Source: an uncultured delta proteobacterium (GTDB lineage: Bacteria; Desulfobacterota; Binatia; Bin18). Taken from it: DNA of 64,000 nt. Numbering within the stretch: the first letter of the stretch is position 1; each line of letters starts with the position of its first letter. The stretch is from contig CAVTCR010000081.1 of assembly GCA_963733195.1 (NCBI GenBank), positions 1 to 64,000 of the forward strand. Reading direction: 5' to 3'. Below, in pieces: positions 5,116-64,000 of this stretch. The notes under the pieces are model-generated. The model ran no database searches and had not been told where the DNA came from. It worked only from the letters and a program-made list of their open reading frames with translations. A program made the position numbers and the translations under genes.

Positions 5116-6354
5116 TTAAAAGGGCGCCTCTTCTCCAGCGAATTCATCACTATCAAGCACGATCACTTTCACCTCCATTCCTTTCAGAAGCGTGGGAAGT
5201 TCGGACGGGCCGATAATGAGCCCTTCGCCAAGAGAGAGTGAACTGAGTACACCTGAACTCTGACTGCCAGTAGAATGCGCTATGTAATGGCCATGTTCGT
5301 GGGTGATGCGACAGCGGACAAACTCGGTCAGCCCCTTAGCCTTTGAGATATCCTCACCAAGCGTTGCTGACAGGACCGGGAGAAAGAGTTTCTCGTGACC
5401 CGTCATGCGCCGCAAGGCTGGGCGGACGTATAAGTAAAAGCAGACTAGAGCAGAGACTGGATTTCCGGGAAGCCCAAAGTACGGGCGCTCACGGAGCAAT
5501 CCGAACGTGAGAGGTTTTCCCGGTCGTTGCGCCACTTGCCAGAACAAACGATGCATCCCGAGTTCATCCATCGCTTGTTTGACGAAGTCAAAATCACCAA
5601 CTGAAACGCCACCGGTTGAGAGGACAACATCGTGCCGGACAGCTTCAGCTAACGCCGCGCGAATCTCTTCAAGCGTGTCACGAGCAATAGCGAGTGGAAC
5701 AGGAACGCCACCTGCCTCGCGCACCGCAGCGGCAAGTGTGTAGGCGTTGGAGTTCACAATTTGTCCAGGCCGTAATGCGTCATCGATTTCTGCCAGCTCG
5801 TTACCAGTGCTCAGGATTGCAACGCGCGGACGCTGATAGACGAGTACGAGGCTGCGCCCGACAGAGGCCAATAGGCCGATATCAGCAGGGCGTAAGACGC
5901 GACCTTTCTCTAAAACAAGCTGCCCGCGCTGAATATCCTCACCGCTTCCACGTACGTTGTTTCCCGGACGCTCACTACGTTTAATCCATACGCGACCGTC
6001 ATGTTCTTCGGTATCTTCAACTTTCACCACGGTATCGGCACCCGACGGCATCACCGCGCCGGTCATGATCTTACTTGCAGTGCCAGGAATTACCGGCTGT
6101 TTCGGAACCGTCCCAGCCTGAATGACTTCCAGCACCTCGAGGGTGACGGGCTGATCTGCATTCGTATCGCGAACGTCATCCCAACGGACGGCGTAACCAT
6201 CCATGGCCGAGTTCGCAAACGGTGGGACTTCGCGCTCCGAGCGGATTTCCTCGGCCAACACCCGACCGACAGCATTCAAAAGTCCGAGCCGTTCGCCCGC
6301 CAAGGGCGAGACCGTATCCAAAATCGTAACTAAAGCGTCGTGTACAGAGATCAT
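5116..6354 (-). CDS. moeA: molybdopterin molybdotransferase
   Basis: [48 protein letters not shown]; likely start MISVHDAL at 6354. Confidence 0.96.
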
Positions 6355-54688: not shown

Positions 54689-54730
54689 GCAAACAAAAAC
54701 GTAAAAGGCTGTCTGAGAAGCAAGAGGTCA

Positions 54731-54785
54731 AGTCATTGCGAGCGGAGCGAAGCAATCTTTGCCCGAAACAGAGACTGCTTCGTCG
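54731..54785. repeat. REP-like element (GTCATTGCGAGCGGAGCGAAGCAATC type)
   Basis: agtcattgcgagcggagcgaagcaatct...gagactgcttcgtcg. Confidence 0.65.
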
Positions 54786-54842
54786 TTGAAGCCTGTCCTA
54801 AGCGGAGAGAAAAAGATAGACACCGCTCGGCCCTCCGCACAT

Positions 54843-57188
54843 TTAAGGAAATAATTGTTGGAAACGGCCAAGATGAGGAACCAGGTCTCGCCGGACCAGT
54901 CTTCGACGCCGTCGTTGTCGGTAACAACAAAGGTGCGGCCACTACTGGTAATCGCAACGCCTTCTGGCTTGTCGGTGATCCAGCCTTTAGTCGCCTTGAG
55001 ATCGGGCAACATGTTATACACAGACTTCTCGCTGCTGTTGATCAGATTGTCGGCGCCGCATTGGGTTTGACCTTGACCAGCGTCTTCAGGGCAGCGAAAT
55101 CACCAGAAAGGTTATCGCGTTCAAGAACGACATACGAACCATCTGGCGCGCGGGTGATCTCGGACAGGCCGACCCAGGCAGCATTGGCTGGCAGCGGTGC
55201 CAGTTCCCAGGCGATCTACTCCCAAGTATCAGCTATCTGGATCGTAGATCCAGATGCGGGTGCGGTTCGGTTCGTTACGTGAGTTGAAATCGCCAGCATC
55301 GTCGTCAAGATCTTCGCATTTTTTGCTGGCGTGGTATAGTCCCAGCCACGTTGCTGGGCAACGAGTAACTTGTAGCTACTGCCGTTACCAGGCAGCACTG
55401 CCACGCCTTCGAAGCCTGAGCCTAGTGTCCCTCTGCGGGTAGAAGCCGCTCGGCATGCGATAATCTCTGCTGGGAAGGCCCACTTCCTCAATGACGTTTC
55501 CGGAGAAATCGACTTGCAACAACAGATTCGGCCGCGAATCGCTGGCATTGCCTTCGCTGGCAATCCACAAGGTGCGGTCCGGTGCAATCGCAATGCCTTC
55601 CGGATCATAGTCCCCGGTACCGCCACGAATGGTCAGCGACTCGGTGATCACTGCCGGTTTTTCTGAAACATCGATGCGGAAAATATTGCTTTGGCTATAA
55701 TACGAGTCCCATACCGCCAGTAGGGTGGCAGGCTGGCCCGGAACGGCGACCATGCCAGACAGTGCCGACCACGGGATCGGCGAGCCATTGACATCATCCG
55801 AGACGATCTGCGGTAGGTCGGCTGACCAGGTTTAGCTGATAGATCATGATGGTAGAACGCACACCGAAGCTCGGATCATCTTCCTCGCCAGAGGCGATCA
55901 GGAGATTGCGCGAGGGAATAGCAAGCACTCCTTCCGGGCCTAGCGGTCCAGGCAACAATTGCTTGAACTTCGGACGGGCACCGTTAACCTCGTACACCGC
56001 AATGAAGCTACCACGCTCGGAGCCGACAAAGAGATAATCGTCGTTGCCGAAACTACCAAATTCAATCGCTTCCGGTTCAGTGCCTTTATTTAGACCGGAC
56101 TTCCGGGTAGTGGCCGTACTGCACGGCGATTTGTTCTAACGATGCCCCGCTATCGAACACTACGTTACCATTACGGTCGAACAGTGAGAACCCGCGCCTT
56201 CCGCCAAACAGGTCCCTTCGTTCGCCTTAGCGATAAAATATCGCGCCGTGGCGGCCATTGCGAAACAAGACAACAGCGTCCGGTTCGCGCGCTACGTTGG
56301 TTAACGTTTCGGTAGGGAAATGATCCGTCCTCGGTCTTGTCGATACCGTTTAGTGTGACTGAGCCGGCGGTGAAATGTTTTATCACACCCCCGTGACAAG
56401 ATTGACGATGACAATGTGACTGTTCTCCTGTAGCGTCACCACAGCTTCATTATCCTCGTTAATGTCGACGGACTCCGGTTCCGGATCACGCCCTCCATAG
56501 CTGGCAAGACGGTGAAGCATCAACATCTCGGATCGCGGCGCTCCCAGGTCGTTGCATTCGTGCCACCAACGATATCGACGATAGCAAGATAACCAGGAGG
56601 CAGTTGCGGCAGCTTCACTTCACACCATTGACTTCGACGTCTTCATCGCATTCATTCTCAATGGCGATGGCAACGTACTTCCGTCCCGGCTGATCTTGAC
56701 GGAGACGGCTAACCGCCGAGATCGATGCTATGCACGATCGCCGCGGAATAGTAGTGATATGGACCACAGCAGCTTGCCGCTCGGATTAATGAAGCGGTGC
56801 TGGTATTAACGGCGACCAGCGCGTATTATTGCCAAGCACGTCAACCGAGGTCGGTTCGCCACCCATCGCAAGGACCCCAGTCGGCGCGGAGTAGATTGAT
56901 CGGTAATGTCGACAAAACCGATTTGCTTGCTGGGCTGTCGGTATAGATCGGCGTGTTGCCGTCACGCGTGGCAGCAATGATTTCTGATATGTCGTCTTGC
57001 CGTTTGGTAGCGCCATATTCACGTAGTTGCCAATGTCGACACCCGTTGAAAATCTCGCCTTGTTATCATGATTGCGGAAATCATTAATGACTTCCGATCA
57101 TCCCCAAGCCCAAAGGCGAACTGGGCGTGGCGGCAGCGCCCGCAATAAACAGAGTTGTCAAGTAAATTCCGGTGTTTTTCTTCTGCAT
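54843..57188 (-). CDS. secreted alkaline-phosphatase/phytase-like esterase (beta-propeller), many indels
   Basis: fragments GGEPTSVDV, KGTEPEAIEFG, FVGSERGSF, GPEGVLAIPSRNL, YDPEGIA, GFEGVAV, DKPEGVA, VTDNDGVED.SGET. Confidence 0.8.
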
Positions 57189-59101
57189 AGGTACTCCTCT
57201 CGATTTCAGATGTTCGATCTATCTCGGTAGTAGTCACAATTGGAGAGGGCATATGATGTCTCCGGTATGTTGTATCAATATGCACACTCGTATGACATCC
57301 ACTTGGGGGTGACGAACCACACTGCTCGGCATTCGTTATGCACACCCAGTTATAAGTTCTTGCTCCGGCAGGGGGGGGGAAGGGCTGCAGAGCCACAGGG
57401 ATTAGGTTTGGTGGTGACGCGAGAGGCCGTCGCTGTCATCAACTTTCGATCCGTCCTCGTCAACCGTTCACATAGGTAGCGTAAGGTCCCTCCCCGCACC
57501 CGATGACTAAGTCTCGTGTGACATTCCTATACGACCATTGTTCTGATATTCTTTTTGTAAATATCACACTGAGAATGTCTTATTTTGAAAGAGGGTTTTA
57601 TGCGTCAAGGTGTAGCAATACCAGTGTCGCGGCTGTTCTCTGGGCATTTTCCTATCAGGCGAGATGGTCTCCGCCGGCGATGATAGTAGCAGTAGAGGGA
57701 AAGGAAAGAGAGGTAATCGAGGTGAGGAACTCTGGCTGCGGAGAGGTTTTGGGCAGGATCGGACACGGCCGGAACATGCAACTCGGCCGCGCCCGTTCTC
57801 TGTGGTCGACAGAATGCGTGCCGCCCACTCGGGGAACGCTGCCGACAGTGCAATAAAAGTCGTTCAACTGAATTCGTTTTTCGATAGATTAACCGTGGGG
57901 GCACACCTCTGCTGATTCCCGAGCACACCAAGGAAAGTAGATCGAGACAGTAGCAGCATGGGCACTCGTATTCTTGAAGTGACGTAACCTACAAGATACA
58001 ACTCATCTGACGTCACAATAAATGTCGATTAACATCTCGACGAACAACATTCGTGCTGCTCCATTGGCAGGCAGAAGTGCACGAAGCCGTCGATTAATAC
58101 AGCGAAACTACCCGGCACTCGCACCTCCGCGCAAGTACTCTGTGCTTTCTACAAGCAAAACTACGTTCACGAACTCAAACCTGAAAGGAAAAATCGGACG
58201 CGTCTGACCCTCGGGAACTACCGTACGGGTATCGACAGAACCGCGAACTATGACGACCTAATATATATAGGACAAGGGGAACGCTGTTGAGCCACAAGGA
58301 AAGTGTCGGGCTGGTGTCAAGTTTCTCGGCGCCGAATTTGCGCCCAAACTAGAAGGGCCCCGACCGTCATCACCCCAACCTGCAAGATGAGGAGGTGTTC
58401 AACAACCAGGAACATACAAAGAAGATGATAGAAAGATCCAGAACGACGATGTCAATCCTTCCCAGGGAATGTCTTGGCCCAATCTTGACTGTGCGATGTC
58501 TGTCTACTGGATACGAGAAGCAGCCGAGTTCGGCGGGAGAGCCGTGTTCCTCGATGATGCCAATGTCCCCAGCAAACTTCCGATACTGGCTGACCTCCAA
58601 ACATGCAGAAAGCAATGATCTCAACATTTCAGCCCCACCCATGTAGCGCTTGCTGACAGTAGAGCAACGGACGGATCATCCCTTCCCGGTACGCCCGGAA
58701 CGCTGAGATTCGCTCACCTCGATGCTGTCGCCTGGACGCTGGAGCGCTCGGGCGACCATCATCGAGGAATGTTGCCGAACCAAGGGTACCGCGAGCCCCA
58801 TCGATTCTACTACCAGTGACACTCGATGCCCTGCGTAACAACGGTGACATCCTGACGACACCTGAGACGTGTTAGCTTCGGCAGATTTCCACATCACGGC
58901 ATCTTCTCCGACTGGTCTGCAACAGTCGTCTGCTATGCAAACTGTAACGGATGAAGATGACAACTCAAAAACGATGCAGCGCGGATCTTGCTCGCTACGC
59001 CCACTCGTAAGTCAAGGACCACCTCCCGTTCAGCCAGGGCCTATCCTGTCCAGAAAGAAAACAGAAGGTGTCTGTGATAGGATGCTCCTACAACCGTTTC
59101 A

Positions 59102-60175
59102 TCACTCATCGTGCGAACATTCGGCGTGGCCTGCGTATTCGAACCACGTCGCCGGGGTTCTTTTCTTCAGCAAAGTCAGGTTTCCTGGCCGCATGCGAGC
59201 TGAAGCACCTGATACCGGCGCGAGACCCTGAGGCACACAGCGGGCGGCCTTCTCAAATAGCAGCAGTGATCTACGACGCCCCTCACCTGAATCCGAGACA
59301 CGCCCCGAGAAATTTGCCAAGTTGTTACCGATTTCTCCTCAGAGCAAAGCAAGATTAAATCCGACGAGCCACGAACCACGACACTGCCGCCCGCCACACT
59401 TCAGCAATATATGGAAGAAGTTAGCGAATGATACTGATAATGCTACAGATTGAGTAACAGTGTCTTATTTCAGCATCCGCTTTCCGGTACTCCTTCCCTC
59501 TCGTGGCAGTCTACCGTGAGATATTGAATCCTTCGGCGTAGGCCGCCATCAGGCCGTACTTCGATGCCGTTGTTGCCGCCCATTTTTTGACGAATGCCCA
59601 GCCCCAGACAGCCACCAGTGCAGATAATTTCCTCCTCCACTGTTCCCGAACATTTGCATGCCCAGGAGTGCGAGAAGGTACGCATCTCTCACCCGGGCCA
59701 ACGTCTCGGGAATCGGAATAAGGGTTTCTTGAACTCCCTGTTCAGGTACCACCAAATAATGAGACGATGACCAACCACCTCCAGGCCCAGATGCCAAACT
59801 GATGCCGAAGACATCGAGATAGTGAATCCCCTTGACTTTGAGATTGTTCGAGCCACGGATGTCGTTCAAATGTAATATCAATCTCCGCCGTCGATCACAA
59901 TGTAACTATGTGCTGGAGACGAGGAGCAAAATCGTCGGGAGCGTTCTCGTCGACCACCGCCTCGCACCATCACCCAGACTGCCCGTGGTGGAGTCGAATC
60001 GCTGGATGGATTCATTTACTATGGACGATGTTTCCTACAGCCCCTTCATGAACAAGCATCTGCACCAGTACATAGGATTCATGTCAAAACGACGCATAAA
60101 TGGTTCACCACGTAAGAGCCAGACGGCACCATGTACCCATTCTGCCAAGCCCAATCATCCCCAGTTCTTGCATCA
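59102..60175 (-). pseudogene. gnd: 6-phosphogluconate dehydrogenase (decarboxylating, short form), heavily disrupted or mis-sequenced
   Basis: collinear fragments LGMIGLGRMG, IDGG, KGIHYLDV, SGAGH, NGIEYGLMAAYAEGFNI, GRVSDSGEGR. Confidence 0.85.
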
Positions 60176-60460
60176 TCAATATCCTTTCTCACTGTTCTTC
60201 TGACATTTTTGTCTCTTTCATTGCAAACAAAGTGTCTCAGAGAAGAGCAAGCACGCGTGTGGTGAGCAATCATCAAAATCACTACAGTCGTCGCAATGAT
60301 ACACACGGTACAAGAACTGCGTAGATCACTTCTTTTACTGATATTCTTGCATGCGCTCTAACTTATAGAAGTGCTCAGTATGTGAAGTAGTAGTGAAGCC
60401 GGAACACTGTACAGACTTCATCGAGGAGTTTCGGTCGTTGACTTCTCGTCGTGTCAGGCA

Positions 60461-60579
60461 TATCAGGGCCAGTCATCGCGTCTTGAGATTGTTGAGAATA
60501 GAAACAGGGCAAAACTGCCCAAAAACCCGGTTCATATCGCATTATCAGGGCAAAATGGCAAGTTAATCAATGGTTAGCC
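60461..60579 (+). other. candidate attI-like/cassette entry site
   Basis: GTTAGCC core at 60573-60579; CAGGGC direct repeats at 60464, 60505, 60546; no attC palindrome upstream. Confidence 0.45.
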
Positions 60580-60622
60580 GCTGGCTTGGCTTATTCAGCA
60601 ATGTCTGCAAAAGTATGATCGG

Positions 60623-60856
60623 ATGCACTTTGAGATTATTGGAGACATTACTGACATTGAACCGATTGCAACTGGACCCAGTATCCGAATCCTCCCGTTT
60701 CTTCGCAAGCGCTATGGGAGAGGGCGATGGCGGAAACTCAAAGGAAAAGCCCTGGTGCGGCTTGCGGATGGAACCGTCCGGCGCGCCGAACTCCATTGGT
60801 TTGAAGCGCATGGCATCGGCAAACGGAAACTGCGGATCAAACGCTTCCTGGACTAA
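60623..60856 (+). CDS. small basic conserved hypothetical protein (putative toxin)
   Basis: IRIL..LRKRYGRGRWRKLKG.A.VRL.DG..RRAELHWFEAHGIG. Confidence 0.8.
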   Translation: MHFEIIGDITDIEPIATGPSIRILPFLRKRYGRGRWRKLKGKALVRLADGTVRRAELHWFEAHGIGKRKLRIKRFLD

Positions 60857-60861
60857 AGACT

Positions 60862-61095
60862 ATGCCTACACGAGTAAAACCCAAGCGACGATTTGCGATT
60901 TGTATTCGGGCCGATGACTCTGATTTGCTGACGCCCCGTCGGATTTACGAAATTCTCCCTGACGCAGACTCGGCCAAATCCCAGTACGTTCGGGTGATCG
61001 ACGATGAGGGCGAGGATTATTTATATCCGGCTTCATATTTTGTGGTTGTAGACTTTCCACCAGCAGTGGAACAAGCCTTATTGCAAGCGTCGTGA
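60862..61095 (+). CDS. small acidic partner protein (putative antitoxin)
   Basis: FAICI....DLLTPRRIYEILPD......VRVIDDEGEDYLYP..YF; 5 nt after the partner gene. Confidence 0.8.
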   Translation: MPTRVKPKRRFAICIRADDSDLLTPRRIYEILPDADSAKSQYVRVIDDEGEDYLYPASYFVVVDFPPAVEQALLQAS

Positions 61096-61112
61096 CATCC
61101 CGAAGTTGTCGC

Positions 61113-61217
61113 GGCTAACAAACGTCCTGGCAGCGGACGCGGCCCCTGTTGCGGATTCTGCTGAATCGTGAAAAGGCAGCGGTTGGGGGCCTTGCCGGCT
61201 GAGGGCAGACGTTAGGC
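61113..61217 (+). other. integron attC site
   Basis: R'' GGCTAAC (61113-61119) ... imperfect palindrome ... R' GTTAGGC (61211-61217), 17 nt after a stop codon. Confidence 0.8.
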
Positions 61218-61282
61218 TCCTTCGGCGGAGAATGACAGAAATCTCTGGATCTTATTACAATAGCGAAGGGTAAGGAGGTGAT

Positions 61283-62216
61283 ATGGATGTTAGGTCTCAT
61301 CCCTAATCGCGACAACTCGCACTGGTGATTTAGCCGCACTCGCTCGTCGTACAGAAACGATATGGGCTTCGACTCGCTCTGGATTCCCAGAACACTCGTG
61401 CTCCCCAGCGGTTCCCTTTCCCCGTTATCCTATTTCCTTCGTGGCCAGAGCACTATGGGCGCTGGGTCGATCCCTTTGTGGCGCTCACCGTGGCGGCAAC
61501 TGCGACCACAAGGCGACTCAAATTGGCCACCGGGGTGTTTGCCTCTTGCCCTAGCGCGACCCTCTGGTGACGGCCAAGGTCGTCCTGAACTCTGGACTAT
61601 TATTCTGGAGGGGGCGGGTTACTTGAGGCGTGGGGGCAGGAGGGCTCAAGGAAGAACTCGAAGTGATGGGGACGCCATTCCGATTGCGCTGGCAGCGGTT
61701 GCGGGAGACGGTGGAGGCGATGCGCGTCCTCTGGACGCAGGCAGAGGCGAGTTATATAGTGGGCTAAACTGGTGCAGTTTCCCGCAGTGCGGTGCGAGCC
61801 CAAGCCGGTTCAACTGGGCGGTCCCCCGATCTTGTTAGGCGGACATGGGCCGAAGGCGCTCGAACGGGTAGCGAGGAGTTATGATGGATGGTGTCCAATT
61901 GTTGTGGAGCCACAAAGTTTTGCAGAGGCGGTGACGATCCTGTGCCAGCTCACGCGCGAGGCGGGACGCAATCCGGAGGCATTGCAACTGAGTCCCTGTG
62001 TTGACCCTCAAGAAGGGGAATCTGTCCGGCGACACTCTGAAGGCGTATCGAGAGGCCGGAGCCACCCGGGTGGTGCTCCTTTCCCAACACATCGCGAGCG
62101 AGATGGCTGATGGGCAGGCAGCAGCGTGGATTGAGCGGCTGGCTCCTATCGTTGAGCGGGCACGACCTCTTATAAAGGAGGCTTCTTGGACAGCTAAGAT
62201 AATAGCAGGGGCGTAA
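61283..62216 (+). CDS. LLM-class F420-dependent oxidoreductase, frameshifted
   Basis: AAGGAGG RBS; GFDSLWIPEH, DPFVAL..AA..T...KLATG, PKPVQ..GPPILLGG, LERVAR.YDGW.P, AYREAGATR. Confidence 0.85.
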
Positions 62217-62249
62217 AGCAGGGCAGACAACAGCGAAGTGGTGCTCACG

Positions 62250-62770
62250 ACTAGGATTTGGCAGCCTGACTCCCATCAGGGCCCCGATGTCAAGTGGGCA
62301 GACGGATGCACTACGGGGGCGGGGTGGCCGTCCGAGAAACAAATGGTGAGTCGTCTTTGCCAAGCGATCGCGGCTGACTTCATTTCGGTTGCTGGTCACA
62401 GCCTGTGGGCTGCACCAAACACCTATAGAGGGTCAATGTTTCCGTGGACAATGTTCCACGGGAAACAGTGGCATCTCGCAGAACGCCACGCCCTAGAAAC
62501 ACTTCTGTGCCCTCATGCCGGTCTTCTCAATAGCAGCGGGTTGTGTCCAAAGACACTCCTAGTTAGTCTCAGACTCGGGGGAGGGGCAGCCACGGGACCC
62601 TTGGTGACGGATCACCAAGAAGATGAGCGGGAGAGACGGTCCAATCACGGCCTGCGGCTCCGGGCTTTCGTCCAGATATTCCCCACAGTCCGTGCTGTAT
62701 ATAAGGAAGAAGCATCAAGAGGGCTCTCCCTGTGTGGGCCAGTTAGACGGCGGGCTCCGTCTCTCCCCTC
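62250..62770 (-). ncRNA. candidate bridge/seek RNA region of the IS110 element
   Basis: hairpins TGTTTCCGTGGA..TTCCACGGGAAACA (62437-62467) and CTTGGTGA-CGGA-TCACCAAG (62600-62619); long stem GGGAGAGACGG/CCGTCTCTCCC (62629-62639/62757-62767). Confidence 0.55.
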
Positions 62771-62775
62771 AGCGG

Positions 62776-63818
62776 TTACGCGGTCACAAAGCGTTGCAGA
62801 TCAAACGCCTGTTCCCGCGTGAGCATGTAATACACGGCGCGGCCCAACTTGTGGGCGAGCACGGTGAGCGCTTTGGCTTTGCCGTGTTTGTGTTCGAGTG
62901 TGGCAAAATACTCTTTCCCCGGCTGACTCTGGCGGATAAACAGCACGGCGGCTTCGGCAAAAGCCCAGCGAAGATGGACGTTGCCAATCTTTTTGCCCGA
63001 AGTCCCCAGTCGTTTGCCATTGGATTCTTTGGCGCACTTCACCAAGCGACAGTAGGAGACAAAATCTTGTACACGGGGAAAGCGGCAATGTCCTGAATCT
63101 CATATAGGATGACCAACGCCAGAATCTGTCCGATCCCGGGAACCGACTGCAACCGGGCGAACGTCTGGACATCATCGGTTTTGGCACTGCGCGTGAGGTA
63201 GAGTTCCACTTCGCCTAATAACTGATCGTAGTGATCAATGAGCGACACGTCGACCTCGATTGCCTTGTGGACACTGGGATCGGGGAAATGGTCGGCGACA
63301 TCTTCGCGATTCGCTTTGTTCGCCAGCCGTTTGCCGATCTCCGGCAGATTGTACTGACTATTGGTATTGTGAATGTGCGCTAAGAGTTCGGCCCGTTTAC
63401 GGGCGAGATGACAGCGGCGCCGGAGTAAATCTCGCGTCGCCCGCATCTCTGAAGGATAGACATAGGCTTGGGGGAACATCCCACCGCGCAATAAGACGGC
63501 AATCTTCTGCGCATCAATTTTATCGTTCTTGGCTTTGCCCCCATGAATCGCCTTCATATAGAGGGCGTGTCCCAGAACGAAGGCAATCCCTTCCTTCTGA
63601 CACAGGTCCGCCAGCCAATACCACGTGAACATACATTCGACGCCGACGACCAGATCTTCACGATACGGGGCAATGAGCCGTAAAAATGCTTCCGGGGTCG
63701 TCGGCAAATTCTTGTGGACCAATTTCGTGCCGTGTTGATCGAGAATACAGACGTACATCGCTCGCGCATGTAGATCGATGCCACAATAGTGTTTATGTTG
63801 GTGCGTGTAAAAGTTCAT
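62776..63818 (-). CDS. IS110-family DEDD transposase/recombinase, frameshifted near 63080
   Basis: GIDLH, VGVEC, KNDKIDA (DEDD); SVPGIG; ESNGK; GNVHLRWAFAEAA; AHKLGRAVY. Confidence 0.95.
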
Positions 63819-63903
63819 CCAGGTTTCCTCCTTGGGGGGTGGATTGTTGGGATACAGCCATCCTACCGCTGCCACTCGCAGCAAAGGAGGCCTGGATGAG
63901 TAT

Positions 63904-63985
63904 CAAGGCGCGCCACCGCATCGCTGCCCTGTGGCGGTTCTGACTAAACCTGAAAGGATACATCTAGCCGCGGCGTGTGATGGCA
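63904..63985 (+). other. distal part of the interrupted attC-like site
   Basis: aaggcgcgccaccgcatcgctgccctgtggcggttctgactaaacctgaaagg resembles attC1 (..gccc.tgttgcggattctgctgaatcgtgaaaagg); R' not clear. Confidence 0.55.
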
Positions 63986-64000
63986 ACGGCATACTTAACC

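What the first reader, a model, noticed from the sequence alone, without database searches (positions are those of the whole stretch)
62221..63985. IS110/IS1111-type recombinase inserted precisely into an integron attC, with a long structured non-coding end (candidate attC-targeting bridge RNA)
Seen: removing the element and keeping one CA rebuilds GCAGACAA-CA-AGGCGCGCCACCGCATCG..., an AAC-ending R''-like box followed by a central region resembling the intact attC at 61113-61217. The circle junction would be GATGAGTAT-CA-GCGAAGTGG, with offset subterminal IRs. The ~540-nt region 3' of the transposase holds at least three clear stems. It also has short matches to donor (GATGAG 62622-62627; CACTTC 62500-62505, revcomp of GAAGTG) and to the attC core (GTTAG 62562-62566 and 62742-62746); these are too short to be significant alone. 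Known: IS110-family elements use bridge/seek RNAs, and IS1111-attC elements target attC sites. Inference: this is an attC-programmed RNA-guided recombinase with a long ncRNA region in an under-sampled lineage.
Basis: partly seen in the sequence, partly recalled or inferred. Interest (0 to 1): 0.8.

Follow-up and report, generated by a model that had tools for sequence, protein, structure and literature searches.

The report
Decayed attC-targeting IS1111-family insertion sequence
This is a broken copy of a very widespread jumping gene that uses its own guide RNA to insert just inside integron recombination sites, a kind of element already described, so the case is largely ordinary.

Summary
The window holds a 1,634-bp IS110/IS1111-family insertion sequence at 62272-63905 (minus strand), inserted one base after the R'' box of an integron attC and antisense to the cassettes. 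The left end is about 40 bp off (62271/62272, not 62231/62232), so the proposed R'' box and circle junction are wrong.

The copy is dead: one base is missing at 63084/63085, which shifts the frame. It is one of six copies in this genome (81-91% identical to it); five of the six are disrupted. The genome also has one miniature derivative and four end remnants.

At least 506 relatives occur across many phyla, mostly with intact 347-aa genes. They share a roughly 500-nt 3' non-coding region with helices supported by covariation. They also share guide-like segments:
- CUAAC, complementary to the R box.
- Sense copies of the left target flank plus the TG core.
- A donor pair whose sequence changes together with the element's ends.

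This anatomy matches the published IS1111-attC group and the seekRNA/bridge-RNA mechanism, shown experimentally for attC-targeting ISKpn4 and ISPst6 in 2024. It is a new member of a known kind. The only unusual feature is a long RNA with two target-like loops.

The parts
62272..63905 (-). Whole insertion sequence (1,634 bp); transposase sense is the minus strand
   Evidence: Limits of similarity among the 6 genomic copies.
62264..62271 (+). R'' box of the interrupted attC (GCCTGAC, degenerate form of GYCTAAC) plus one variable base N (T)
   Evidence: All 6 copies and 5 remnants are preceded by ..CTAAC-N. Empty attCs read CTAAC-N-AGCCGCGCC.
63906..64000 (+). Rest of the interrupted attC (L'' ... 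L', degenerate R' CTTAACC at 63994-64000)
   Evidence: attC HMM hit 63901-63982. Aligned with the flanks of the other copies, which end in GTTAGSC.
61113..61217 (+). Neighbouring intact attC (R'' GGCTAAC 61113-61119, R' GTTAGGC 61211-61217)
   Evidence: Sequence. HMM hit 61124-61215, E 1e-6. Its single-strand fold is not better than shuffles (z +0.82).
63085..63818 (-). Transposase, N-terminal part (aa 1 to about 245, DEDD/RuvC-like domain), ATG at 63818-63816
   Evidence: Pfam PF01548. tblastn against an intact 347-aa relative gives aa 1-248 in one frame.
63084..63085 (-). Frameshift: one base absent compared with three intact relatives
   Evidence: Alignment A3, column 63; frame change in tblastn.
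62776..63084 (-). Transposase, C-terminal part (Tnp domain) in another frame; stop codon at 62776-62778
   Evidence: Pfam PF02371; tblastn aa 246-347.
63889..63905 (-). Left end: core TG (63905-63904), -10-like GATACT (63904-63899), subterminal inverted repeat CCAGGCC (63895-63889)
   Evidence: LE alignment. LE12 against RE-6 is complementary in 95% of 40 elements.
62272..62293 (-). Right end: -35-like TTGACA (62288-62293), subterminal repeat GGCCCTGA (62276-62283), terminus ..TGATGGG
   Evidence: Family-wide cTTGACA-N-GGCCTsATArG ends. Joining the ends gives TTGACA-N17-GATACT.
62629..62767 (-). Loop 1: stem S1 (62757-62767 with 62629-62639) enclosing block A CGUCUAACUGG (62739-62749, right-target guide) and block B GCAGGCCGUGAUUGG (62641-62655, left-target guide + core + first bases of the LE)
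   Evidence: S1 has 10 pairs, all with double changes. Block B matches the left flank, permutation p 0.0002-0.003.
62510..62586 (-). Loop 2 (about 80 nt): stem S3 (62571-62586 with 62510-62524) enclosing block C GAGACUAACUAGG (62558-62570) and block D CGCUGCUAUUGAGA (62525-62538)
   Evidence: S3 covariation. Block D matches the left flank, p 0.0008-0.005.
62415..62506 (-). Donor module: right-donor guide AGAAGUGUUUC (62496-62506), stem S5 (62491-62495 with 62428-62433, enclosing two hairpins), left-donor guide UAUAGG-UG-UUUGG (62415-62427)
   Evidence: The left-donor guide equals the RE end plus core: RE-2 is the same base in 93% of 40 elements and exact 6-mers occur in 24 of 27. The right-donor guide matches the complement of LE3-10, p about 0.001.
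62301..62333 (-). Last hairpin before the -35 box, followed by a U-rich stretch in many relatives (possible 3' end of the RNA)
   Evidence: Single-sequence fold and inspection of relatives. No consensus came from RNAalifold.

Best explanation
**What it is.** 62272-63905 is a non-functional copy of an IS1111-type (IS110-family, DEDD recombinase) insertion sequence. Its family inserts into integron attC sites directly after the R'' box, antisense to the cassettes.

**Inferred mechanism in intact relatives, by analogy with published seekRNA/bridge-RNA systems.**
- The element excises as a circle whose joined ends form a TTGACA-N17-GATACT promoter.
- That promoter transcribes the transposase gene and the roughly 500-nt 3' region.
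- The 3' RNA folds into modules that base-pair with DNA.
  - A CUAAC segment pairs with GTTAG, the R box on the transposase-sense strand.
  - A segment that copies the left target flank plus the TG core pairs with the other strand.
  - A donor pair reads the element's own ends: AUnnnUUUC is complementary to the left end, and AUAGG-UG copies the right end plus core.
- Recombination then occurs at a TG (CA on the window's + strand) shared by donor and target, without a target duplication.

**Shown here:** anatomy, copy ends, attC context, RNA helices by covariation, and co-variation of RNA segments with flanks and ends.

**Inferred:** transcription, RNA binding by the recombinase, the chemistry and the exact crossover.

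**State of this copy.** In this genome the family is a fossil. The window copy has a frameshift, a degenerate R'' box and a mutated right terminus.
For: - **Family assignment.** Pfam and NCBIfam place it in the IS110 family.
- **Copies in this genome.** Six copies all show the same ends, the same orientation and the same position in attC. Empty attCs in the genome read CTAAC-N-AGCCGCGCC.
- **Integron context.** There are 69 attC-like sites on 29 contigs, in same-strand clusters at cassette spacing. Several lie next to intI or intI fragments (C41, C77, C62, C32, C1), and a full intI scores 477 bits.
- **Target across the family.** The right flank starts N-GTT in 41 of 43 elements.
- **RNA helices.** In S1 plus one hairpin, 140 double-change cells were seen against 42.7 +/- 6.1 in shuffles (0/500), and slid controls gave at most 39. 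In S3 and S5 the figures were 57 against 14.5 +/- 4.6 (0/500).
- **Guides.**
  - Left-donor guide: the same base as RE-2 in 93% of 40 elements.
  - Left-target guide against the left flank: p 0.0002-0.003, n = 39.
  - Right-donor guide against the LE: p about 0.001, n = 26.
  - L056 and L058 carry CG instead of TG at the LE start, the RE junction and blocks B, D and E together.
  - L051 pairs UUUAAC with GTTAAA, and L056 pairs UAUAAC with GTTATA.
  - A Vibrio campbellii plasmid copy (54% aa identity) shows AUAUG-UG opposite a CATATG|TG end.
- **Subterminal repeat.** Its variable base is complementary in 95% of 40 elements.
- **Decay.** A 1-base gap is, and 5 of 6 copies are disrupted.
Against: - **No experimental support.** There is no evidence of RNA, of RNA binding or of movement for this family. 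One metatranscriptome holds contigs of relatives on 62488-62599 and 63085-63668, but DNA carry-over cannot be excluded.
- **Left-flank matches are partial.** They are often only 3-5 bases. One element type sits at two sites with different left flanks (L063, L064). The permutation tests do not correct for relatedness or base composition.
- **The CUAAC guide mismatches many sites.** GTTAG follows N in only 18 of 43 elements; the others are GTTAT in 9, GTTAA in 5, and further variants.
- **The UGG after CUAAC shows no relation to the target** (p 0.48 and 0.80).
- **The base opposite the first core position is U, not A.**
- **The crossover is not fixed by the data.** The RE-junction base N varies and looks target-derived, while the LE junction is TG in 37 of 40 elements.
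- **attC identity of sites in distant relatives is only partly supported.** 16 of 36 rebuilt sites fold attC-like, and 12 of 38 have an R' complement against 3 of 36 in a control.
- **The neighbouring intact attC does not fold better than shuffles**.
- **Kinship with ISPa21, ISPst6 and ISKpn4 could not be tested.**
Confidence: 0.87

Rival explanations
1. One reading: an active attC-programmed RNA-guided recombinase whose element spans 62233-63905, with a CA core at both ends, an R''-like box GCAGACAAC on the left, and a home in an under-sampled lineage.
For: The right end and the CA are correct. The attC context is correct. There are guide-like segments in the 3' region.
Against: The other five copies share nothing with 62233-62271; each has its own ..CTAAC-N directly before CCTATCAGG. 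The gene is frameshifted. 506 relatives were confirmed in one scan.
Confidence: 0.03
2. The repeats hit by the element are not integron attC sites but another kind of dispersed palindromic repeat (REP-like). On this view the element is an ordinary REP-targeting IS1111 member, like ISPa11.
For: - The repeats are scattered over 29 contigs, often in pairs or alone.
- The intact repeat at 61113-61217 has no significant single-strand fold.
- Only 16 of 36 rebuilt sites fold attC-like.
- No intI lies near the window's pair of sites.
Against: - The repeats have RYYYAAC ... GTTRRRY boxes with complementary inner arms.
- They form same-strand arrays at 0.6-3 kb spacing, for example on C55 and C24.
- They lie beside intI genes or fragments on C41, C77, C62, C32 and C1.
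- The genome has a full integron integrase above the curated cut-off.
- Short ORFs precede the repeats in the window.
Confidence: 0.06
3. The long 3' region is conserved because it encodes a protein (for example the 194-aa frame 62238-62822 on the + strand), or because it holds only cis-acting binding sites, rather than a guide RNA.
For: Open frames of 157-194 aa overlap the region. The terminal roughly 160 nt survive in remnants and in a miniature derivative, which suggests a cis role for that part.
Against: - Relatives differ by many indels that are not multiples of three.
- Conservation is in short blocks separated by variable hairpins.
- Helices keep pairing through double changes.
- Blocks co-vary with flanks and ends.
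- Published IS1111 members make a transposase-bound RNA from this region (PMC11187229, section 8).
Confidence: 0.04

Closest known systems
IS1111-attC group (ISPa21, ISPst6, ISKpn4, ISPa25; Tetu & Holmes 2008, Post & Hall 2009)
   Same: - IS1111-type element with subterminal inverted repeats and a long 3' non-coding region.
[quoted passage not shown]
- No target duplication.
- A guide RNA from the 3' region with the top-strand match before the bottom-strand match (PMC11187229).
   Different: - Kinship is untested. I could not obtain sequences of the named members: PMC2447020 is not held and supplements are closed.
- In the plasmid collection the best matches outside this clade are at most about 35% identical. 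It may therefore be a separate clade, or simply the environmental bulk of the same group.
- The published seekRNAs are 82-86 nt (long forms 145-170 nt). Here about 470 nt of the 3' region is conserved and there are two target-like loops.
IS621 bridge RNA (IS110 group; Durrant 2024, Hiraizumi 2024)
   Same: - A DEDD/RuvC plus Tnp recombinase.
- An RNA with internal loops.
- One side of a loop copies the left arm plus core and so pairs with the bottom strand. The other side is complementary to the right arm (PMC11208160, section 7).
- A dinucleotide core shared by donor and target.
- Separate target and donor modules.
   Different: - The RNA lies 3' of the gene, not 5'.
- The order of the guides is reversed.
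- The subterminal repeats are long.
- The sense guides run on past the core into the partner arm (UUG-AU, GG-UG-UUUGG).
- The base opposite the first core position is U.
- There are three modules rather than two.
ISEc11 / ISPa11 seekRNA systems (IS1111 family; Siddiquee 2024)
   Same: - A circle-junction promoter.
- An essential 3' NCR.
- Terminal extensions beyond the subterminal repeats.
- Flanking target sequence needed for excision (PMC11187229 passages), which fits guides that match the integrated junctions.
   Different: The targets differ (a linear site, REP). Nothing has been tested experimentally for this clade.
Copy on a Vibrio campbellii ATCC BAA-1116 plasmid (NC_022271.1, annotated only as 'IS110 family transposase')
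   Same: - 54% aa identity over 95% of the query.
- The same LE (TGATACTCATTGAGCC) and the same RE (ATTGACA...GGCTCATATG|TGTTATG).
- The same blocks: CGUCUAACUGG, UUUGAUUAG, GAUAACUGG and AAUAUGUGUUUG.
   Different: It lies next to another IS110-family gene, and I did not establish whether its site is an attC. Its 3' region is shorter (about 455 nt).
Group IIC-attC introns
   Same: Another mobile element that reads attC by RNA-DNA pairing, inserts near the 5' end of attC and sits antisense to the cassettes (PMC3001079).
   Different: It is a retroelement with a ribozyme and a reverse transcriptase. There is no homology.

Membership tests
IS110 family (DEDD recombinase IS) | N-terminal DEDD/RuvC-like domain plus C-terminal Tnp domain | tested here: met
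   PF01548 at 2e-17 and PF02371. NF033542 at 212.8 bits for the intact relative L019 and 143.4 bits for the window fragment, cut-off 140.
IS110 family (DEDD recombinase IS) | Intact transposase gene in this copy | tested here: not met
   One base is missing at 63084/63085 compared with three intact relatives, giving two frames. This makes the copy a pseudogene; it does not make it a non-member.
IS1111 subgroup | Subterminal inverted repeats | tested here: met
   GGSCTNA in the RE against its complement at LE11-17. The variable base is complementary in 95% of 40 elements and a second position in 100%.
IS1111 subgroup | Long non-coding region downstream of tnp, short upstream end | tested here: met
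   504 nt downstream against 87 nt upstream in the window. The downstream region is 447-661 nt in 43 elements.
IS1111 subgroup | No target duplication; abutted ends form a promoter | tested here: met
   Removing 62272-63905 restores the spacing of empty attCs. TTGACA-N17-GATACT forms when the ends are joined, read from sequence only. A circle was not observed.
IS1111 subgroup | Transposase clusters with IS1111 rather than IS110 in a tree | not tested
IS1111-attC group | Inserted in attC near its 5' end, one orientation, antisense to cassettes | tested here: met
   6 of 6 copies plus 5 remnants lie directly after ..CTAAC-N. The cassette ORF and the attC are on the + strand and tnp is on the - strand. 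The literature description is in PMC3001079.
IS1111-attC group | Monophyly with ISPa21/ISPst6 | not testable with these tools
   PMC2447020 is not held. No named sequences were found in the plasmid searches.
seekRNA / bridge RNA | Conserved RNA secondary structure in the non-coding end | tested here: met
   Helices S1, S3, S5 and one hairpin show covariation far above the shuffled and slid controls. The last 170 nt gave no consensus.
seekRNA / bridge RNA | [quoted passage not shown] | tested here: met
   CUAAC (complement of GTTAG) lies 5' of NNNN-UUG-AU (a copy of the left flank plus core) in loop 1 and again in loop 2. The matches are partial.
seekRNA / bridge RNA | Segments that co-vary with the element's own ends (donor loop) | tested here: met
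   The left-donor guide tracks the RE end in 93% of 40 elements. The right-donor guide tracks LE3-10 with p about 0.001. The CG-core lineage changes in all places together.
seekRNA / bridge RNA | RNA is made and bound by the recombinase and is needed for movement | not testable with these tools
   The only hint is metatranscriptome contigs of relatives on 62488-62599, and the library may hold DNA.
Integron attC site | R''(RYYYAAC)-L'' ... L'-R'(GTTRRRY) with complementary arms | tested here: met
   Seed alignment of empty sites. 69 sites were found by iterated nhmmer.
Integron attC site | Arrays on one strand at cassette spacing, next to intI | tested here: met
   Clusters on C55, C24, C74 and C77. 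intI or intI fragments lie beside arrays on C41, C77, C62, C32 and C1. The window's own pair has no intI nearby.
Integron attC site | Stable single-strand hairpin | tested here: inconclusive
   61110-61222 gives z +0.82. Rebuilt sites of 5 of the 6 own copies fold with GTT paired at a span of 84-102 nt.

The most novel reading that the evidence does not exclude
The family's 3' RNA may be a three-module bridge RNA of about 470 nt, roughly twice the published 150-250 nt. It would have two separate loops that each carry an R-box-complementary CUAAC and a copy of the left flank plus core, together with a donor module.

The doubled target module could be an adaptation to attC in one of two ways:
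- Reading both R boxes of the two-fold symmetric site.
- Giving separate modules for insertion and for excision.

It would sit in a phylum-spanning clade distinct from the clinical ISPa21/ISKpn4 lineage.
Probability: 0.2. Interest if true: 0.55.

Novelty: new member of a known kind. Interest (0 to 1): 0.3.

Why it matters
- **For this genome.** The element marks decayed integron cassette arrays and explains one broken attC.
- **For the field.**
  - The clade is very abundant: at least 506 loci in species-representative genomes of many phyla, with hundreds of contig fragments in soil and sediment metagenomes.
  - Because it inserts into attC sites, it may influence cassette mobility in environmental integrons.
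  - It offers a large natural series of guide/target/donor triples for IS1111-type bridge RNAs, including a lineage with a changed core and a copy in a culturable Vibrio.
- **Limit.** The mechanism itself is already published, so the single window finding adds little.

Tried and rejected
- **Rfam.** At E <= 1 on 60000-64000 the only match was a chance snoRNA hit outside the element.
- **The repeat finder.** On 40-64 kb it did not pick up the attCs, and BLAST with attC queries was too insensitive. An iterated nhmmer search replaced both.
- **Plain mutual information** between RNA columns and DNA positions was dominated by clade markers. I kept only pairs with high identity or complementarity.
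  - The single-column links of LE15 with block A and of LE12 with RNA position 374 were set aside as probable clade effects.
- **A first right-donor-guide candidate** (AUGAG in the S3 3' strand) did not follow LE variation and was dropped in favour of AUnnnUUUC before S5. In that test 2 of 28 elements had no candidate, and three rows (L025, L027, L033) were anchored at the wrong place but still counted.
- **The three or four bases after CUAAC** show no complementarity to the target (p 0.48 and 0.80).
- **RNAalifold on the last 170 nt** gave no pairs.
- **The own-genome attC HMM** recognises only the nearest relatives' sites: 10 hits in 6 loci, 3 of them adjacent to the LE.
- **Crude attC tests on distant sites** were weak.
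- **Search for named IS1111-attC members.**
  - PMC2447020 is not held.
  - A Pseudomonas aeruginosa plasmid hit (32% identity) is not in an integron.
  - Plasmid searches gave no ISKpn4 or ISPa21 label.
- **Supplementary Fig. 7 of PMC11187229** (ISKpn4/ISPst6/ISPa25 seekRNA folds) could not be seen. It bears on whether loop 2 equals the published seekRNA.
- **Sequencing runs.**
  - All holders had small shares, at most 0.16 of words.
  - In the four runs laid, no contig lay on 62200-62259, and depth fell after 63939. This is only absence of cover, so it is listed here and not used as evidence.
- **Not used:** Structure prediction, complex prediction, protein-representative, atlas and homologous-protein searches.
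Full report
**What is in the window.** Two overlapping minus-strand frames (63039-63884 and 62776-63045) carry the two domains of an IS110-family recombinase. Pfam gives PF01548 at 2e-17 and PF02371. NCBIfam gives 'IS110 family RNA-guided transposase'.

A tblastn with an intact 347-aa relative shows aa 1-248 and aa 246-347 in different frames. Alignment with three intact relatives shows a single missing base between 63084 and 63085. The rest of the window has long open frames of up to 1,025 aa, so this is not general assembly noise.

**Ends.** The genome (6.95 Mb, 87 contigs) holds six full copies. The five others are 81-91% identical to the window copy.

Aligned with flanks, similarity starts at CCCATCAGG (62272) and stops at GGATGAGTATCA (63905). 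Every copy is preceded by ..GYCTAAC plus one variable base. Every copy is followed by a roughly 90-nt conserved stretch ending in GTTAGSC.

Empty versions of that repeat in the same genome read ..CTAAC-N-AGCCGCGCCACCGCATCG.... The left end is 40 bp too far out, and the 'R''-like' GCAGACAAC is ordinary flank.

**The target is an attC.**
- The repeats have RYYYAAC and GTTRRRY boxes with complementary inner arms.
- An iterated nhmmer search finds 69 of them on 29 contigs, in same-strand clusters at cassette spacing.
- Several clusters adjoin intI genes or fragments, and one full integron integrase scores 477 bits against a cut-off of 265.
- In the window, an intact attC lies at 61113-61217, behind a short + strand ORF. 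The next cassette holds fragments of a luciferase-like monooxygenase. Its attC is the one split by the element.
- The transposase is antisense to the cassettes, and the insertion lies at the 5' end of the attC. This matches the published description of the IS1111-attC group (PMC3001079 passage).
- Against: the intact attC does not fold better than shuffles as single-stranded DNA (z +0.82).

**The family.** One scan of species-representative genomes confirmed 506 relatives. The 80 kept are 62-95% identical and come from MAGs labelled Binatia, Deltaproteobacteria, Planctomycetota, Acidobacteriota, Nitrospirota and others.
- 49 of the 74 loci in which I could call the gene have a 346-350-aa frame.
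- A profile of the 3' region hits 68 of the 80 loci.
- In 43 elements with defined ends, the 3' region is 447-661 nt and the right flank begins N-GTT in 41. The five bases after N are GTTAG in 18, GTTAT in 9, GTTAA in 5 and other words in the rest.
- The ends carry a subterminal repeat whose variable base stays complementary in 95% of 40 elements.
- The right end carries TTGACA and the left end GATACT. Joined, they would form a promoter with a 17-nt spacer.
- These are the hallmarks of IS1111-type elements (PMC11187229, passages; PMC11208160, section 12).

**The RNA.** The window's 3' region folds better than all 100 shuffles (z -2.46). Family alignments support four helices by compensatory change.
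- S1 and a small hairpin: 89% of cells paired, with 140 double-change cells against 42.7 +/- 6.1 in shuffles (0/500). Slid controls gave at most 39.
- S3 and S5: 97% of cells paired, with 57 double-change cells against 14.5 +/- 4.6 (0/500).
- The last 170 nt gave no consensus.

*Loop 1.* S1 encloses an internal loop.
- Its 5' side is ..CGYCUAAC-UGG, the complement of the R box GTTAG on the transposase-sense strand.
- Its 3' side is NNNN-UUG-AU-UGG. This copies the last bases of the left flank, the TG at the element's start and its next two bases.
- The variable bases match the left flank more than in permuted pairings (81 against 59.2 matches over four bases, p 0.0002; n = 39).

*Loop 2.* S3 encloses a second loop of about 80 nt with the same two kinds of segment (CUAAC-UGG..UUGA). 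Its match to the left flank gives p 0.0008-0.005, n = 32.

*Donor module.* S5 is flanked by two segments.
- AUnnnUUUC follows the complement of left-end positions 3-10 (p about 0.001, n = 26).
- AUAGG-UG-UUUGG copies the right terminus plus TG. It has the same A/G as the terminus in 93% of 40 elements, and exact 6-mers in 24 of 27.

*Individual lineages show the linkage.*
- L056 and L058 have CG instead of TG at the left end, at the right junction and in three RNA blocks.
- L051 pairs UUUAAC with GTTAAA.
- A Vibrio campbellii plasmid copy pairs AUAUG-UG with a CATATG|TG end.

*Comparison with published systems.* The order, with the top-strand-complementary segment first, is the one reported for IS1111 seekRNAs. 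The logic is that of the IS621 bridge RNA: a sense copy of the left arm plus core, and the complement of the right arm.

**Weak points.**
- The left-flank matches are short, and one element type occupies sites with different left flanks.
- The CUAAC guide mismatches the fifth base of many sites.
- The UGG after CUAAC has no target relation.
- The permutation tests ignore relatedness.
- The crossover is only inferred. The left junction reads TG in 37 of 40 elements. The base before GTTAG at the right junction is T in 30 of 43 overall, but G, A or T in this genome, much like the base at that place in its empty attCs.
- Sites of distant relatives pass crude attC tests only in part (12 of 38 and 16 of 36).
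- Expression evidence is limited to contigs of relatives in one metatranscriptome.

**State in this genome.**
- Five of six copies are disrupted by frameshifts or an in-frame stop. One keeps the frame but has lost its stop codon.
- There is a roughly 170-nt derivative with both termini in an attC on C49, and four right-end remnants behind R'' boxes.
- The window copy also has a degenerate R'' box (GCCTGAC) and a degenerate terminus.

**Verdict.** The finding is real but ordinary in kind. It is a decayed member of an abundant clade of attC-targeting IS1111-type elements, and their RNA-guided mechanism was published in 2024. The literature searches for 'IS1111-attC', for seekRNA with IS1111, for bridge RNA with IS1111, and for attC with bridge RNA returned those papers and no description of this clade.

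What may be new is the long three-module RNA with two target-like loops. I could not compare it with the published attC seekRNAs because the named sequences and the supplements were out of reach.

Noticed in passing
G000 contig C49, about 9.69-9.86 kb: A derivative of the element of roughly 170 nt (about 150 nt of the right end joined to about 20 nt of the left end) sits in an attC at the usual position. It looks like a non-autonomous miniature element lacking the guide blocks.
   Followed up: partly
G000 C47:62003-62167, C56:189882-190011, C73:48985-49048, C5:56248-56323: Solo right-end remnants (75-175 nt), each directly behind a ..CTAAC-N box and broken off at a different point.
   Followed up: partly
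window 54700-62220: About 7.5 kb without long open frames, next to well-kept genes. It holds fragments of a phytase-like gene (55385-55753) and of a luciferase-like monooxygenase (61772-62110), so it looks like a decayed, pseudogene-rich stretch around the cassettes.
   Followed up: partly
G000 C33, C32, C1, C66, C41, C62, C77: One full integron integrase (C33:20009-20953) and many intI fragments with stop codons. Several lie beside attC clusters, but no attC of this type was found on C33 itself.
   Followed up: no
L028/L029, L039, L049, L062: Some relatives carry extra DNA inside the 3' non-coding region: about 135 nt in L028/L029 and about 0.55-1.1 kb between profile segments in L039, L049 and L062.
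   Followed up: no
L069:5862-6037 and 6073-6249: Two tandem solo copies of the last roughly 175 nt of the right end lie downstream of a full element in a Terriglobia contig.
   Followed up: no
L063 and L064 (one Nitrospiraceae contig): Elements with identical 3' regions sit at two sites whose left flanks differ (GATGCCTT and CAGCCGAT). This suggests that left-flank recognition is loose.
   Followed up: partly
window 62340-62400 (RNA sense GAAAUGAAGUCAGCC) and relatives: A conserved motif GAAAc.AAGUCAG, downstream of the left-donor guide, has no role in my model.
   Followed up: no
L098 (NC_022271.1 20880-21923 and 22340-23356): The Vibrio campbellii plasmid copy lies directly downstream of a second, different IS110-family transposase gene.
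   Followed up: no
window 60623-60856 and 60862-61095: Two adjacent 77-aa ORFs precede the intact attC and have no Pfam match. They may be a two-gene cassette.
   Followed up: no
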